Program-made: the position numbers and the translations under genes
Source of the DNA: a virus
Lineage: Duplodnaviria; Heunggongvirae; Uroviricota; Caudoviricetes
Direction: 5' to 3' (one strand)
IMG/VR virus record: IMGVR_UViG_2695420698_000011
DNA: 9,294 nt
Shown: positions 409 to 6,364 of the stretch, piece after piece
Position numbering within the stretch: the first letter of the stretch is position 1
How the letters are laid out: every line of letters begins with the position of its first letter
The notes under the pieces: generated by a model
What the model was told of the DNA's origin: nothing
Databases searched by the model: none
Seen by the model: the letters and a program-made list of their open reading frames with translations, nothing else

Positions 409-749
409 CGACTTTTACCAGAGAGCAGTTAATAGCTCACGCAGAGGAGACTATTGAAGCACAGAGACTGTGCATACCGGGCACAATCGACCATGACATC
501 ATCCGCACATATAAGATGGATATTGCTGTTCTGGAAATCGCACTGGTATCGCTGGCAGCAGAGCCAGCCGGTAAATTGCATGAATACAAACCAGTGGGAT
601 ATCAGCGTCTGGTCGATGAGTTAACCATGCTGGTAAAGCAGTTAACCTGGCAACTGAGGAAAGCGAAGCCAGACTGCAAATTACCGGATAAGGCGATGAG
701 TTATCTGGAGCGGAACGGACTGATAAGCGTGGAGGATATTTTACGATGA
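405..749 (+). CDS. hypothetical phage protein, 114 aa
   Basis: ORF track; ATG 405 with GAAGGGG upstream; stop overlaps next ATG at 746. N-terminus [15 protein letters not shown] resembles the N-terminus of the ORF at 3225. Confidence 0.55.
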
Positions 750-829
750 CCTGGCCTGAAGCATTAACAACGGTAGGAATTGCGATGGCGGTGGCGCTGG
801 TGGTGTATTCGATTTGCCGCTGGGGATAA
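746..829 (+). CDS. small hydrophobic peptide, 27 aa ([27 protein letters not shown]), possible membrane peptide
   Basis: ATG 746 overlaps stop of upstream gene (ATGA); GGAGGA at 729-734; one hydrophobic stretch. Hand-read, short, unverified. Confidence 0.3.
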
Positions 830-1040
830 AAACGGTTTGCGGGAAAAGGAGAGTTAAGTAGAATTGCAGCGGGTGCTTGAGGCTATCTGTCTCAGGCATG
901 AACACCAAAAGGCAGATAGAGAAAAGCCCCAGTTAACATTACGCGTCCGGCAAGACGCTTAACATTAATCTGAGGCTCAATCTATGAACGGCAAATCTAG
1001 GTTAGCCTCTTACGTGCCGAAAGGCAAGGAGAAGCAGGCT

Positions 1041-1196
1041 ATGAAGCAGCAAAAGGCGATGTTAATCGCCCTGATCGTCATCTGTTTAACCGTCATAGTG
1101 ACGGCACTGGTAACGAGGAAAGACCTCTGCGAGGTACGAATTCGAACCGGCCAGACGGAGGTCGCTGTCTTCACAGCTTACGAACCTGAGGAGTAA
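1041..1196 (+). CDS. hokD: Hok/Gef-family membrane toxin, 51 aa (HokD/RelF-like)
   Basis: Translation MKQQKAMLIALIVICLTVIVTALVTRKDLCEVRIRTGQTEVAVFTAYEPEE: N-terminal TM helix plus conserved Hok C-terminal region; matches my recollection of E. coli HokD/RelF. AAGGAG at 1027-1032, 8 nt before ATG 1041. The track ORF 984..1196 is an in-frame upstream extension. Confidence 0.8.
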   Translation: MKQQKAMLIALIVICLTVIVTALVTRKDLCEVRIRTGQTEVAVFTAYEPEE

Positions 1197-1266
1197 GAGA
1201 CCAGGCGGGGGAGAAATCCCTCGCCACCTCTGATGGGTCAGGCATCCTCAATGCACCCACACTTAA

Positions 1267-1290
1267 CCCGCTTCGGCGGGTTTTTGTTTT
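1267..1290 (+). terminator. rho-independent terminator after hok (CCCGC-TTCG-GCGGG plus T-run)
   Basis: GC stem 1267-1271/1276-1280 followed by TTTTTGTTTTT; preceded by a longer imperfect hairpin at about 1204-1225 that could be the hok mRNA 3' fold-back. Confidence 0.7.
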
Positions 1291-2832: not shown

Positions 2833-2926
2833 ATGACCGAGCGCATAGAATTTGTTTTACCTTACCCGCCGACGGTGAACACTTACTGGCGTCGTCGTGG
2901 CAGCACATATTTTGTATCAAAAGCCG
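2833..2926 (+). pseudogene. 5' fragment of a second rusA allele (MTERIEFVLPYPPTVNTYWRRRGSTYFVSKA), cut off by a 7-N gap
   Basis: ATG 2833 directly follows the ydfU stop (TAA 2830-2832); the 31 codons parallel the start of the intact rusA at 3467 (LPYPPTVNTYWRRR...YFVSKAG) with nucleotide differences; sequence ends at N 2927-2933. Confidence 0.6.
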
Positions 2927-3467: not shown

Positions 3468-3841
3468 TGCGCCATGAGTTTATTTTACCTTATCCGCCGA
3501 CGGTGAATACTTACTGGCGACGTCGTGACAACACATATTTTGTATCAAAAGCCGGTGAGCGTTATCGCCGGGATGTGGCGCTTATTGTCCGTCAGCAGCG
3601 ACTGAAATTAAGCCTGTCCGGAAGACTGGCGATAAAGATTATTGCAGAGCCACCGGATAAGCGCCGTCGTGACCTGGACAATATCCTGAAAGCACCACTG
3701 GATGCACTGACACATGCGGGAGTGTTAATGGACGATGAGCAGTTTGATGAAATCAATATCGTTCGTGGTCAGCCAGTATCTGGTGGACGTCTGGGGGTGA
3801 AGATTTACCCCATAATGCATGAAGAGCAGGTCAAAAAATGA
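3467..3841 (+). CDS. rusA: RusA-family Holliday junction resolvase, 124 aa
   Basis: Translation has the RusA hallmarks as I recall them (LPYPPTVNTYWRRR..., RRDLDNILKAPLDALT, GVLMDDEQF) and typical size; stop overlaps the Q start at 3838 (ATGA). Confidence 0.85.
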   Translation: MRHEFILPYPPTVNTYWRRRDNTYFVSKAGERYRRDVALIVRQQRLKLSLSGRLAIKIIAEPPDKRRRDLDNILKAPLDALTHAGVLMDDEQFDEINIVRGQPVSGGRLGVKIYPIMHEEQVKK

Positions 3842-4398
3842 AACTGGAAGATTTACCGAAATACTACTCCCCAAAATCCCCTTGCCTGACCGATGCATCG
3901 GCCTCAACGTCAAAAGATGCGCTGAGTATCACTGATGTGATGGCCGCGCAGGGCATGACACAGAATCGGGCTGAGATGGGGTTTTCTGCGTTCCTGGGGA
4001 AAATGGGCATCAGTATGAATGACAGGGCGCGGGCAACAGAATTACTGGCAGATTATGCACTCAGTCGGTGCGATCGTGTGGCGGCGTTGAGAAAACTTCC
4101 GGCAGAAATAAAACCGGTAGTGATGCGCATTATGGCTTCGTACGCTTTTGAGGATTATGCCCGCAGCGCAGCGAGTAAAAAGCAGTGCCCTTGTTGCTAT
4201 GGGGAAAAATTTATTGAAAGCGTAGTTTTTACAAACAAGGTCCAGTATCCGGATGGTAAGCCGCCGGTATGGGCAAAGTGTACGAAAGGTGTGTATCCGT
4301 CTTACTGGGAAGAATGGAAAAAAGTCAGGGAGGTGGTAAAAGTTGCCTGTCCGGAGTGTGGCGGAAAGGGTGAGNTTCCTTGGGAAAATGGGCATTAG
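3838..4398 (+). pseudogene. Q antiterminator copy A: N-terminal 179 codons intact to 4374, then frame runs through an ambiguous base (4375) into a diverged repeat
   Basis: ATG 3838 coupled to rusA stop; translation identical to the 4672..5427 ORF over the shared region up to CPECGGKGE; base 4375 is n and the downstream sequence restarts an internal part of the same gene. Confidence 0.6.
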
Positions 4399-4623
4399 TA
4401 TGAATGACAGAGAGCGGGCAACAGAATTGCTGACAGAATATGCACTCAGTCGGTGTGATCGCGTGGCGGCGTTAAGAAAACTCCCGGCAGAAATAAAACC
4501 GGCAGTGATGCGTATTATGGCTTCGTATGCGTTTGAAGATTATGCCCGTAGCGCGGCGAGCAAAAAACAGTGCCCCTGCTGTCACGGAAAAAAATTTATT
4601 GAAAGCGAGGTTTTTACAAACAA
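4376..4623 (+). repeat. diverged internal Q-gene fragment (copy B), bounded by single n at 4375 and 4624
   Basis: Aligns to 3991-4238 of copy A with scattered substitutions (protein ARATELLADY to ERATELLTEY, CYGEK to CHGKK); looks like an allele from another prophage. Confidence 0.7.
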
Positions 4624-4671
4624 NCCGATGCATCGGCCTCAACGTCAAAAGATGCGCTGAGTATCACTGAT

Positions 4672-5427
4672 GTGATGGCCGCGCAGGGCATGACACAGAA
4701 TCGGGCTGAGATGGGGTTTTCTGCGTTCCTGGGGAAAATGGGCATCAGTATGAATGACAGGGCGCGGGCAACAGAATTACTGGCAGATTATGCACTCAGT
4801 CGGTGCGATCGTGTGGCGGCGTTGAGAAAACTTCCGGCAGAAATAAAACCGGTAGTGATGCGCATTATGGCTTCGTACGCTTTTGAGGATTATGCCCGCA
4901 GCGCAGCGAGTAAAAAGCAGTGCCCTTGTTGCTATGGGGAAAAATTTATTGAAAGCGTAGTTTTTACAAACAAGGTCCAGTATCCGGATGGTAAGCCGCC
5001 GGTATGGGCAAAGTGTACGAAAGGTGTGTATCCGTCTTACTGGGAAGAATGGAAAAAAGTCAGGGAGGTGGTAAAAGTTGCCTGTCCGGAGTGTGGCGGA
5101 AAGGGTGAGGTTTCCACCGCCTGTAAGGATTGCCGTGGGCGTGGTGTCGCCATTCATCGTGAAGAGTCGGTAAAACGTGGTATGCCTGTTATCAGAGACT
5201 GCCAGCGTTGTGGTGGTCGTGGCTATGAAAGACTACCATCAACGGAGGCATTTAATGCTATATGCGAGGTGACAAACCAGATAACACGCGCGTCATGGGA
5301 AAAAACAGTTAAGAAATTCTATGATGCGCTGGTGACTCGGTTTGATATTGAAGAAGCATGGGCTGAGCGGCAGTTAAAAAAGGTAACTAGGTTGATTTTT
5401 CCGGAATCTGTGGTAAATTCGTCATAA
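4672..5427 (+). CDS. Q-like late antiterminator, 251 aa ORF (copy C), with four CxxCxGxG-type zinc-finger repeats
   Basis: Intact ORF to TAA 5425-5427 immediately upstream of a lambda-like PR'/pause element; sequence from 4625 repeats copy A 3888-4374 exactly as far as I can read. The authentic protein probably starts at ATG 3838 (about 283 aa if the duplication is artifactual). Family call rests on position and size. Confidence 0.7.
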   Translation: MMAAQGMTQNRAEMGFSAFLGKMGISMNDRARATELLADYALSRCDRVAALRKLPAEIKPVVMRIMASYAFEDYARSAASKKQCPCCYGEKFIESVVFTNKVQYPDGKPPVWAKCTKGVYPSYWEEWKKVREVVKVACPECGGKGEVSTACKDCRGRGVAIHREESVKRGMPVIRDCQRCGGRGYERLPSTEAFNAICEVTNQITRASWEKTVKKFYDALVTRFDIEEAWAERQLKKVTRLIFPESVVNSS

Positions 5428-5866: not shown

Positions 5867-6364
5867 NNNNNNNNNNNNNNNNNNNNNNNNNNNNNNNNNN
5901 NNNNNNNNNNNNNNNNNNNNNNNNNNNNNNNNNNNNNNNNNNNNNNNNNNNNNNNNNNNNNNNNNNNNNNNNNNNNNNNNNNNNNNNNNNNNNNNNNNNN
6001 NNNNNNNNNNNNNNNNNNNNNNNNNNNNNNNNNNNNNNNNNNNNNNNNNNNNNNNNNNNNNNNNNNNNNNNNNNNNNNNNNNNNNNNNNNNNNNNNNNNN
6101 NNNNNNNNNNNNNNNNNNNNNNNNNNNNNNNNNNNNNNNNNNNNNNNNNNNNNNNNNNNNNNNNNNNNNNNNNNNNNNNNNNNNNNNNNNNNNNNNNNNN
6201 NNNNNNNNNNNNNNNNNNNNNNNNNNNNNNNNNNNNNNNNNNNNNNNNNNNNNNNNNNNNNNNNNNNNNNNNNNNNNNNNNNNNNNNNNNNNNNNNNNNN
6301 NNNNNNNNNNNNNNNNNNNNNNNNNNNNNNNNNNNNNNNNNNNNNNNNNNNNNNNNNNNNNNNN
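5867..6364. other. 498-nt N run (masked or unsequenced)
   Basis: Literal n characters; hides the 5' part of the methyltransferase gene and anything between the terminator and that gene. Confidence 0.95.

What the first reader, a model, noticed from the sequence alone, without database searches (positions are those of the whole stretch)
830..1290. hokD-like toxin without visible relBE or an obvious sok; in-frame upstream start would give an N-terminally extended Hok
A near-canonical Hok toxin sits after three small phage genes rather than after relBE. An in-frame ATG at 984 (with GAGG upstream) could add 19 residues (MNGKSRLASYVPKGKEKQA), unlike the out-of-frame mok arrangement of classical hok/sok loci. 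The 5' leader (830-1040) has inverted repeats (e.g. CTATCTG at 885-891 with CAGATAG at 913-919) and the 3' end has a fold-back-like hairpin. Whether an antisense Sok-like RNA is made from the minus strand is unknown.
Basis: partly seen in the sequence, partly recalled or inferred. Interest (0 to 1): 0.45.

Follow-up and report, generated by a model that had tools for sequence, protein, structure and literature searches.

The report
Intact prophage hok/mok/sok toxin-antitoxin locus
This is an ordinary, complete copy of the well-known hok/mok/sok RNA-controlled toxin-antitoxin module carried by lambda-like prophages of E. coli. The "missing" antitoxin RNA gene is present, and the in-frame upstream start is the known mok reading frame.

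Summary
Window 851-1290 is a complete hokD/hokW-type type I toxin-antitoxin cassette in the nin region of a lambdoid prophage.

- **Toxin:** the 51-aa Hok ORF (1041-1196) is identical to K-12 HokD.
- **Leader:** the Rfam hok/sok model matches 871-1046 end to end (112 bits; family threshold 59).
- **ATG at 984:** this is the mok start codon. Phage 933W annotates the same 70-aa in-frame mokW with hokW and antisense sokW. K-12 mokC/hokC are also in frame.
- **Sok gene:** it maps to 992-922 on the minus strand. Its promoter (-35 TTGCCT, 17 nt, -10 TAACCT) is base-identical to that of 933W/Sp5, where sokW was shown experimentally to neutralise HokW.
- **Folding:** the predicted structures reproduce the plasmid R1 scheme (tac/fbi end-pairing, ucb masking the mok SD, and an SD/dcb target hairpin).
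- **K-12 relBE-hokD:** this is the truncated derivative. Its homology to the window starts only at about 1027.
- **Frequency:** the cassette is present in about 72% of complete E. coli genomes.

One side observation may deserve follow-up. The Sok 5' tail / mok codons 2-5 form a hypervariable patch in otherwise near-identical loci.

The parts
859..864 (+). -10 box (TAGAAT) of the hok mRNA promoter. The -35 region is weak (TTTGCG at 836-841) and is not conserved between loci.
   Evidence: TAGAAT lies 7 nt before G871, which is position 1 of the Rfam model. Homology between loci begins at about 851-856, and the sequence upstream of that is variable. This is a sequence reading, not a mapped promoter.
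871..1290 (+). Full-length hok (mok-hok) mRNA transcription unit.
   Evidence: The Rfam sok/hok-leader model starts at 871. The terminator is at 1265-1282 plus a T-run. Fold dG is -169.2 kcal/mol, z=-6.8.
871..882 (+). tac element, the mRNA 5' end. It pairs with fbi in the full-length RNA and with ucb in the processed RNA.
   Evidence: MFE pairs run 871-882 with 1258-1246. The Rfam consensus pairs 871-878 with 924-930. The sequence is invariant in 80/80 relatives.
883..919 (+). Conserved 5' leader hairpin.
   Evidence: The A885:T917 to G:C double change is seen in 5 distinct sequences.
924..930 (+). ucb (anti-SD) box AAGCCCC. It masks the mok SD in the closed form.
   Evidence: MFE pairs run 925-930 with 977-972. 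Conserved in 79/80 relatives.
922..992 (-). Sok antisense RNA gene: a 14-nt single-stranded 5' tail (992-979) followed by a long hairpin and a U-rich end.
   Evidence: These are the coordinates of the annotated sokW of 933W transferred through the alignment. Fold dG is -29.9 kcal/mol, z=-4.9, with an unpaired 14-nt tail.
999..1027 (-). Sok promoter: -35 TTGCCT (1027-1022), 17-nt spacer, -10 TAACCT (1004-999). The start site is near 992.
   Evidence: Read from the minus strand. The sequence is identical to 933W/Sp5 over 999-1040. The R1-type plasmid has TTGCCT-17-TATCCT at the same place. The generic promoter scan misses it because the -10 box matches only 3 of 6 positions. Hexamer diversity in relatives is low, pi about 0.06.
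972..975 (+). mok Shine-Dalgarno sequence (GAGG).
   Evidence: It is homologous to the GAGG mok SD of R1 (PMC9841398).
984..1196 (+). mok reading frame (70 codons). It starts 57 nt before hok and is in frame with it.
   Evidence: It is homologous to mokW, to mokC and to orf74 of VT2-Sakai.
979..1003 (+). Sok target hairpin around the mok start (sokT). Its loop and upper stem, at about 977-998, are hypervariable between loci.
1005..1009 (+). dcb box (GCCTC). It pairs with the mok SD in the processed, open form.
   Evidence: Shown by the Rfam consensus pairing and by the constrained fold. Conserved in 79/80 relatives.
1041..1196 (+). hok toxin gene (51 aa, identical to HokD). Its SD (GGAG) is at 1028-1031.
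   Evidence: In the predicted full-length fold the SD is paired.
1204..1225 (+). 3' UTR stem-loop, the likely road-block that defines the processed 3' end.
   Evidence: A 9-bp stem in the folds. The role is inferred by analogy with R1 (PMC1635323 and PMC9841398).
1246..1258 (+). fbi element (CCTCAATGCACCC), complementary to the mRNA 5' end.
   Evidence: Diversity is low, pi=0.026.
1265..1290 (+). Intrinsic terminator of the hok mRNA.

Best explanation
Window ~851-1290 is an intact hok/mok/sok type I toxin-antitoxin cassette of the hokD/hokW subtype, sitting as a self-contained module in the nin region of a lambdoid prophage.

Proposed mechanism, by homology with plasmid R1 hok/sok and phage Sp5 hokW/sokW:

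1. A stable roughly 420-nt mRNA is made from 871.
2. In the full-length form its 5' end (tac) pairs with the 3' fbi box. The ucb box masks the mok Shine-Dalgarno sequence and the hok SD is also paired, so nothing is translated.
3. Slow 3' trimming back to the 1204-1225 stem-loop removes fbi.
4. tac then pairs with ucb, and the mok SD moves into an SD/dcb hairpin.
5. That hairpin is either bound by the short-lived antisense Sok RNA (992-922, minus strand), with the duplex cut by RNase III, or, if Sok is depleted, translated from the mok ATG at 984.
6. mok translation opens the hok start, and the membrane-depolarising 51-aa Hok is made.

Because mok lies 57 nt upstream here, ribosomes starting at 984 would also read through into a 70-aa Mok-Hok product. 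That is a by-product of the spacing, not a special feature of this locus.

Shown here: all the sequence elements, their homology to known loci, and the predicted alternative folds.

Inferred, not shown: transcription, processing, translational coupling and toxicity in this particular element. The biological role is also inferred. Candidates are prophage retention, help with lysis on induction as reported for Sp5, or exclusion of other phages.
For: - Hok is identical to HokD and matches Pfam HOK_GEF at 3e-23.
- Rfam RF01794 covers 871-1046 over the full model, at 112.4 bits against a threshold of 59.
- The 933W record annotates mokW (in frame), hokW and sokW at the homologous positions.
- The window is identical to 933W over 999-1040, which includes the Sok promoter. 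933W is identical to Sp5/VT2-Sakai over 490 nt.
- Experiments on Sp5 show that HokW is toxic. sokW expressed from its own promoter neutralises it, mutating that promoter restores toxicity, and sokW is detected on northern blots (PMC8621323).
- Predicted folds: 12-bp tac/fbi pairing, ucb paired with the mok SD, hok SD paired, z=-6.8.
- In the 3'-truncated RNA, the tac/ucb plus SD/dcb 'open' fold is isoenergetic with the MFE (-137.0 vs -137.5 kcal/mol).
- Sok folds as a 14-nt tail plus hairpin, like the R1 Sok described in PMC1635323.
- tac, ucb, dcb, fbi and the promoter hexamers are nearly invariant across 80 distinct relatives.
- The cassette is found at >=80% coverage in 3908 of 5426 complete E. 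coli genomes.
- K-12 relBE-hokD shares only window ~1027 onward.
Against: - Nothing was measured for this element.
- The Sok -10 box (TAACCT) matches the consensus at only 3 of 6 positions, and the generic promoter scan reports no minus-strand promoter.
- The hok -35 region is weak and not conserved.
- The MFE of the truncated RNA shows the metastable 5' hairpin rather than the tac/ucb stem. The open form is only isoenergetic with it.
- Chromosomal hok loci tested earlier did not mediate post-segregational killing (cited in the bioRxiv survey).
- The window Sok differs from sokW in its 5' tail, so the Sp5 results transfer by homology only.
Confidence: 0.9

Rival explanations
1. The in-frame ATG at 984 makes a functional N-terminally extended 70-aa Hok that is selected as a protein, for example with altered targeting or toxicity. 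On this view it is not just a leader frame whose translation matters.
For: - The 57-nt in-frame spacing holds in most relatives (about 85 of 100 loci; all 80 best IMG/VR matches).
- It also holds in 933W mokW and K-12 mokC.
- The extension residues 6-19 (RLASYVPKGKEKQA) are well conserved.
Against: - Near-identical loci have 56-nt (14-16 loci), 58-nt and 59-nt spacings. These break the fusion while keeping Hok and all the RNA elements.
- Codons 2-5 are the most variable part of the locus.
- The conserved codons 6-19 overlap the dcb box, the Sok promoter and the hok SD, which explains their conservation at the RNA/DNA level.
- In R1, mok translation is required but the Mok product is not (PMC9841398).
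Confidence: 0.1
2. The locus is a decayed, non-functional hok relic like K-12 hokD, lacking a working antitoxin or working regulation.
For: - The generic scan finds no minus-strand promoter.
- PGAP annotates only hokD here, with no mok or sok.
- K-12 chromosomal hok loci are reported to be inactive (PMC1635323).
Against: - The Rfam match is full length.
- The Sok promoter and body are conserved and identical to the experimentally active Sp5 locus.
- There are no stops, frameshifts or IS insertions.
- All the interaction boxes are nearly invariant in 80 relatives.
- The truncation seen in K-12 starts at about 1027 and is absent here.
Confidence: 0.05
3. The molecular parts are the same, but the main role is not prophage addiction. 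Instead the module acts as a lysis helper on induction, as reported for Sp5, or as an abortive-infection defence against other phages. Read-through from the phage early operon would supply hok mRNA.
For: - Sp5 lacking hokW-sokW released about half as many phage. Mitomycin C lowered sokW and raised HokW in a RecA-dependent way (PMC8621323).
- R1 hok/sok excludes T4 (cited in PMC10305079).
- The cassette lies in the same orientation as the flanking nin-region genes.
Against: - Nothing in the sequence discriminates between these roles.
- The cassette has its own -10 box and its own terminator, so it does not need read-through.
Confidence: 0.4

Closest known systems
hokW/mokW/sokW of Shiga-toxin phages 933W and Sp5 (VT2-Sakai)
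   Same: - Same cassette: about 92% identical over window 746-1268.
- Same 57-nt in-frame mok.
- Identical Sok promoter, dcb box and hok start region.
- Same kind of host element, a lambdoid prophage.
- Experimentally confirmed as a type I TA system (PMC8621323).
   Different: - Different location in the phage genome. In 933W it is near the right end, next to L0136/L0139. Here it is in the nin region, before rem-ydfU-rusA-Q.
- Different Sok 5' tail and mok codons 2-5 (MNGKS here, MLNTC in 933W).
- Hok C-terminus is FTAYEPEE here and FVDYESEK in 933W.
- The sequence after about 1264, including the terminator, is different.
relBE-hokD (relF) of the E. coli K-12 Qin prophage
   Same: - Identical 51-aa HokD protein.
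- Identical 3' UTR, fbi box and terminator.
- Same downstream genes (rem, ydfU/DUF968).
   Different: K-12 shares nothing upstream of window ~1027. tac, ucb, mok, Sok and most of the Sok promoter are replaced by relBE sequence. K-12 is the truncated form and the window is the intact one.
hok/sok (parB) of plasmid R1 and R1-type plasmid loci
   Same: - Same architecture and the same named RNA elements: tac, ucb, mok SD GAGG, sokT hairpin, dcb, fbi.
- Sok promoter at the same position, with the same -35 TTGCCT.
- 19 mok codons lie before hok.
   Different: - mok-hok spacing is 58 nt, so mok is out of frame and is named DUF5431 by PGAP.
- Hok is only about 39% identical.
- The R1-type locus is plasmid-borne and has a proven post-segregational killing role.
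hokC(gef)/mokC/sokC of the E. coli K-12 chromosome
   Same: - mok is in frame: mokC is 69 aa and contains HokC.
- Hok is 82% identical.
- The leader 5' end is the same (GGGTGCTTGAGGCT).
- The SokC 5' end overlaps the first 9 nt of mok, as in sokW.
   Different: - It is a core-chromosome locus with IS186 about 20 bp downstream of hokC in K-12.
- The mok N-terminal half and the Sok -10 region have diverged.

Membership tests
[quoted passage not shown] | Small (~50 aa) Hok/Gef-family membrane toxin ORF | tested here: met
   Pfam PF01848 at 81.6 bits, E=3e-23. NCBIfam Hok subfamily hit, below its cutoff. The protein is identical to HokD, WP_000813254.1.
[quoted passage not shown] | Conserved structured 5' leader of the hok mRNA (tac, ucb, mok SD, Sok-target hairpin, dcb) | tested here: met
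   Rfam RF01794 hits 871-1046 on the + strand, model positions 1-157 of 157, at 112.4 bits against a threshold of 59. The boxes are nearly invariant in 80 relatives.
[quoted passage not shown] | Overlapping mok frame with its own SD, starting about 57-58 nt upstream of hok | tested here: met
   GAGG at 972-975 and ATG at 984, 57 nt before hok. This is positionally homologous to mokW, mokC and R1-type mok.
[quoted passage not shown] | Cis-encoded antisense Sok RNA gene with its own promoter, overlapping the mok start | tested here: met
   Tested at the sequence level only. The promoter is -35 TTGCCT / 17 nt / -10 TAACCT, and the RNA (922-992, minus strand) has a 14-nt tail plus hairpin. The region is identical to the annotated and experimentally active sokW promoter. 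The generic promoter scan is negative.
[quoted passage not shown] | Long-range 5'-3' end pairing (tac/fbi) in the full-length mRNA, and an alternative tac/ucb fold after 3' trimming | tested here: met
   Prediction only. There are 12 bp between 871-882 and 1246-1258. In the truncated RNA, the tac/ucb plus SD/dcb fold is -137.0 kcal/mol against an MFE of -137.5.
[quoted passage not shown] | Translational coupling of hok to mok, 3' exonucleolytic activation, and RNase III cleavage of the Sok duplex | not testable with these tools
   Known for R1 (PMC9841398, PMC1635323). RNase III and Hfq dependence is known for sokW (PMC8621323). It needs experiments on this locus.
[quoted passage not shown] | Toxicity of Hok and its neutralisation by the cognate Sok | not testable with these tools
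   HokD was used as a toxic positive control in the bioRxiv survey. HokW/sokW was shown directly. This allele pair has not been tested.
K-12-type relBE-hokD operon | hokD directly downstream of relB-relE, co-transcribed with them and lacking its own leader | tested here: not met
   There is no relBE in the window. K-12 homology begins only at window ~1027.
R1-type (out-of-frame mok) arrangement | mok start 58 nt upstream of hok, in the +1 frame, ending inside hok | tested here: not met
   The spacing here is 57 nt and in frame. R1-type plasmids and hokB have 58 nt. The in-frame type is that of mokW and mokC.

The most novel reading that the evidence does not exclude
The one feature I could not find described is a hypervariable patch at about 977-998. 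It covers the 14-nt single-stranded 5' tail of Sok together with the loop and upper stem of its target hairpin, which are also mok codons 2-5.

- The patch is about 10 times more diverse than the rest of these otherwise near-identical prophage cassettes (pi 0.32 vs 0.03-0.08).
- At least a dozen alleles exist.
- Every allele keeps the hairpin and its stability.

The most novel reading is that these are specificity ('immunity') alleles. Co-resident or competing prophages would then carry mutually orthogonal hok/sok pairs, as in antisense-RNA incompatibility groups of plasmids. The window carries the commonest allele, MNGKS.

Two cautions apply. The alternative, patchy gene conversion among hok paralogs without selection for orthogonality, is not excluded. 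Only 3 same-genome pairs could be checked, and 2 of them differed.
Probability: 0.35. Interest if true: 0.45.

Novelty: already known. Interest (0 to 1): 0.1.

Why it matters
As a finding it matters little. The locus is a textbook system, annotated in phage 933W as mokW/hokW/sokW and characterised experimentally in Sp5 in 2021. It is present in most E. coli genomes.

Three practical points follow:

- Standard pipelines label these loci only 'hokD' and omit mok and Sok, so intact, regulated cassettes look like orphan toxins.
- The K-12 relBE-hokD reference is the atypical, truncated form and should not be used as the norm.
- In-frame mok is a normal variant and is not evidence for an extended toxin.

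The allelic variation in the Sok recognition tail could be worth a dedicated population-level and experimental test of cross-neutralisation.

Tried and rejected
- **Generic sigma-70 scan of 600-1500.** It reported no minus-strand promoter. I rejected this as evidence of absence, because its threshold needs 4 of 6 matches in each hexamer and the homologous, experimentally active sokW promoter has the same TAACCT.

- **DNA pattern AAGGAGAAGNNNGCNATGAA in genome contigs.** The pattern was too unspecific.

- **K-12 mokA as a further in-frame example.** Rejected, because the annotated pseudogene is cut by IS150 and its frame cannot be read.

- **NCBIfam.** It gave only sub-threshold Hok hits and has no Mok model.

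- **Weak Rfam hits over the 3' UTR.** isrK at 25.7 bits and rsmX at 23.3 bits are well below their thresholds and were dismissed.

- **YUNR U-turn motif in the target loop.** It is not consistently present across alleles, so I make no claim about it.

- **Literature search for mokC/hokD frame statements.** It found nothing useful in the open library. The older primary papers (Poulsen 1991; Pedersen and Gerdes 1999) are not held there, and I cite them from memory only.

Full report
**1. What is in the sequence**

The region holds a 51-codon ORF at 1041-1196 whose product matches Pfam HOK_GEF (E=3e-23). The product is the same RefSeq protein as K-12 HokD, WP_000813254.1. An in-frame ATG at 984, preceded by GAGG at 972-975, extends the frame to 70 codons.

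There is no relBE upstream. The neighbours are small phage ORFs (241-408, 405-749 and an unannotated 27-codon ORF at 746-829). Downstream lie rem, a DUF968/ydfU gene, rusA, Q, a DNA methyltransferase and tRNA genes. This is the nin-to-Q segment of a lambdoid prophage.

The 3' end carries a 9-bp stem-loop (1204-1225), a box complementary to the 5' end (1246-1258), and an intrinsic terminator (1265-1282 plus T-run).

**2. The leader is a complete hok/mok/sok regulatory region**

The Rfam family RF01794 is called 'sok', but it models the plus-strand hok leader and ends at the hok AUG. It matches 871-1046 over all 157 model positions at 112.4 bits (threshold 59, E=1.4e-25).

The GenBank record of phage 933W annotates three features at the homologous place:
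- mokW, 213 nt, with the same stop as hokW and therefore in frame, giving 70 aa;
- hokW;
- an antisense sokW RNA.

Transferring the sokW coordinates through the alignment puts Sok at window 992-922 on the minus strand.

Read on the minus strand, the Sok promoter is TTGCCT (1027-1022), a 17-nt spacer, then TAACCT (1004-999), with the start about 7 nt downstream. The window is base-identical to 933W over 999-1040. 933W is identical to Sp5/VT2-Sakai over 490 nt. An R1-type plasmid has TTGCCT-17-TATCCT at the same place.

For Sp5, Takada et al. 2021 (PMC8621323) showed four things:
- HokW is toxic.
- sokW expressed from its own promoter neutralises it.
- Mutating that promoter restores toxicity.
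- sokW is seen on northern blots.

So 'no obvious sok' does not hold. The generic promoter scan misses the promoter only because its -10 box matches 3 of 6 positions.

**3. Predicted RNA mechanics match the R1 scheme**

In the full-length RNA (871-1290; dG -169.2 kcal/mol, z=-6.8), three pairings are predicted:
- 871-882 pair with 1258-1246 (tac/fbi);
- the ucb box 925-930 pairs with the mok SD at 972-977;
- the hok SD (1028-1035) is paired.

I then folded the RNA trimmed to 1238 and forced the tac/ucb stem that the Rfam consensus shows. This costs nothing (-137.0 vs MFE -137.5 kcal/mol). It places the mok SD in a hairpin closed by the dcb box at 1005-1009, which is the Sok target.

Sok folds into a 14-nt unpaired 5' tail plus a long hairpin (z=-4.9). 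This matches the description of R1 Sok, whose 11-nt tail recognises a loop in the truncated mRNA (PMC1635323). The R1 pathway itself is summarised in PMC9841398. These are predictions, not measurements.

**4. The in-frame start is mok, and the frame is incidental**

The spacing from the mok ATG to the hok ATG differs between loci:

| Locus | Spacing | Frame |
|---|---|---|
| This window | 57 nt | in frame |
| 933W mokW | 57 nt | in frame |
| VT2-Sakai orf74 ('gef homolog') | 57 nt | in frame |
| K-12 mokC/hokC (same stop; MokC contains HokC) | 57 nt | in frame |
| R1-type plasmids and hokB/mokB | 58 nt | out of frame |

I surveyed 107 hok leaders pulled from IMG/VR by a leader motif. Most had 57 nt, but 14-16 near-identical loci had 56 nt, and single loci had 58 or 59 nt. 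Hok and all the RNA boxes were intact in these variants.

In R1, what is required is translation of mok up to the hok start, not the Mok product (PMC9841398).

The conserved part of the extension (codons 6-19) overlaps the dcb box, the Sok promoter and the hok SD. Codons 2-5 are the most variable part of the locus. A selected 70-aa toxin is therefore unlikely (about 0.1), although ribosomes starting at 984 would make such a product here.

**5. Relation to K-12 relBE-hokD**

K-12-type genomes match the window only from about 1027 onward (query position 198; alignment). The junction lies inside the Sok -35 box.

Downstream of the junction, the hokD coding sequence, 3' UTR, fbi box, terminator, rem and ydfU are shared. 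K-12 hokD is therefore the truncated derivative, having lost tac, ucb, mok and Sok. The window shows the intact form.

**6. How common is it**

The 471-nt region is found at >=80% coverage in 3908 of 5426 complete E. coli genomes. Genomes that have it carry a median of 2 and up to 9 places. It also occurs in 83 phage records and in hundreds of IMG/VR contigs, and more than 25 of those encode the identical 70-aa frame.

Homology between loci starts at about 851-856 and ends at about 1284-1290. The unit therefore behaves as a discrete cassette with its own -10 box and terminator.

[quoted passage not shown] It also states that Mok and Sok were not analysed because they are hard to predict (bioRxiv 10.1101/2025.08.07.668861). 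PGAP labels these loci only 'hokD'.

**7. Side observation: a hypervariable patch**

Within otherwise near-identical cassettes, positions about 977-998 are hypervariable. Nucleotide diversity across 80 distinct sequences is:

| Region | pi |
|---|---|
| Sok 5' tail (979-992) | 0.32 |
| Six bases upstream of the Sok start (993-998) | 0.29 |
| Sok body | 0.08 |
| Sok promoter hexamers | 0.06 |
| hok coding sequence | 0.03 |

There are at least 18 sequence variants and about a dozen Mok N-termini, including MNGKS (this window), MSHKC, MLYTR, MLNTC and MLDTC.

Every allele keeps the SD/dcb outer stem and an inner hairpin of similar stability (-13.2 to -14.7 kcal/mol). This patch is exactly the element that initiates Sok-mRNA recognition in R1, so the alleles may set specificity.

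Only three same-genome pairs were available; two differed and one was identical. That is too few to decide. The sample is also biased, because one set was chosen for identity to the window and the other by a leader motif.

**8. Verdict**

It is wrong on the two points that made the finding look interesting: sok is present, and the in-frame start is the ordinary mok of the hokC/hokW type.

The locus is an already known system, a new copy of hokD/hokW-mok-sok. Interest is low (0.1).

The biological role in this prophage stays open. The candidates are addiction, help with lysis on induction as in Sp5, and exclusion of other phages.

Noticed in passing
window 977-998 (both strands): There is a hypervariable patch in otherwise near-identical hok cassettes. 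It covers the Sok 5' single-stranded tail plus the bases just upstream of its start, which are also the mok SD-ATG spacer and mok codons 2-5. Diversity is pi 0.29-0.32 against 0.03 in the hok coding sequence. About a dozen alleles exist, and all keep the target hairpin. These may be Sok specificity alleles.
   Followed up: partly
L211-L330 (IMG/VR loci), region homologous to window 984-1041: The mok-to-hok spacing is not fixed within this clade. It is 57 nt (in frame) in most loci and 56 nt in 14-16 loci, with 58 and 59 nt once each. In the 56-nt type, mok ends after 19 codons, just past the hok ATG in the +2 frame.
   Followed up: yes
window 1026-1027 vs L002 (K-12 JM109) ~1500: The junction between relBE-derived sequence and hokD in K-12 falls inside the -35 box of the Sok promoter. 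K-12 hokD has therefore lost tac, ucb, mok, Sok and the Sok promoter in a single event.
   Followed up: yes
window 851-856 and 1284-1290: Homology between hok cassettes in different phages starts and stops at these points, and the flanks are unrelated. The cassette behaves like a discrete insert (a 'moron') that sits in different phage contexts: the nin region here, and near the right end in 933W.
   Followed up: partly
window 2841-2926 / 3469-3554; 3890-4189 / 4275-4574 / 4625-4924; N runs at 2927-2933, 4375, 4624, 5867-6364, 8121-8242, 8613-9192: The rusA 5' end and pieces of the Q antiterminator gene are repeated (100%, 68% and 88% copies), and the repeats are interrupted by single or short N runs. 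Three long N runs mask parts of the methyltransferase gene, a stretch before the last tRNA, and 580 nt after the STnc100 hit. This looks like an assembly or masking artefact, or a mosaic. I did not resolve which.
   Followed up: no
window 7171-7420 and 8257-8333: There are four tRNA genes downstream of Q and the methyltransferase: anticodons CAT, Arg-TCG and Arg-TCT, then a second Arg-TCT. The closest complete genome also has tRNA genes here, though only two (Ile and Arg).
   Followed up: no
window 8410-8599 (+): A strong Rfam match to the sRNA family STnc100 (123.6 bits, threshold 47, full length) lies directly before a 580-nt masked run.
   Followed up: no
window 746-829 (+): A 27-codon hydrophobic ORF ([27 protein letters not shown]) has a start that overlaps the stop of the upstream gene (ATGA). 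It is not annotated in the closest complete genome. It could be a small membrane protein.
   Followed up: no
phage record PP818812.1 (hit H1), matching window 700-1288: A record named 'Actinobacillus phage vB_Apl-pPE4' (host Actinobacillus pleuropneumoniae) is 96.9% identical to this E. coli prophage segment, including the hok cassette. That is an unexpected host label for an enterobacterial lambdoid sequence.
   Followed up: no
window 1205-1286 (+): A weak, sub-threshold Rfam hit to isrK (25.7 bits, threshold 50) covers the hok 3' UTR and terminator. I treated it as chance or as shared terminator-like structure.
   Followed up: no
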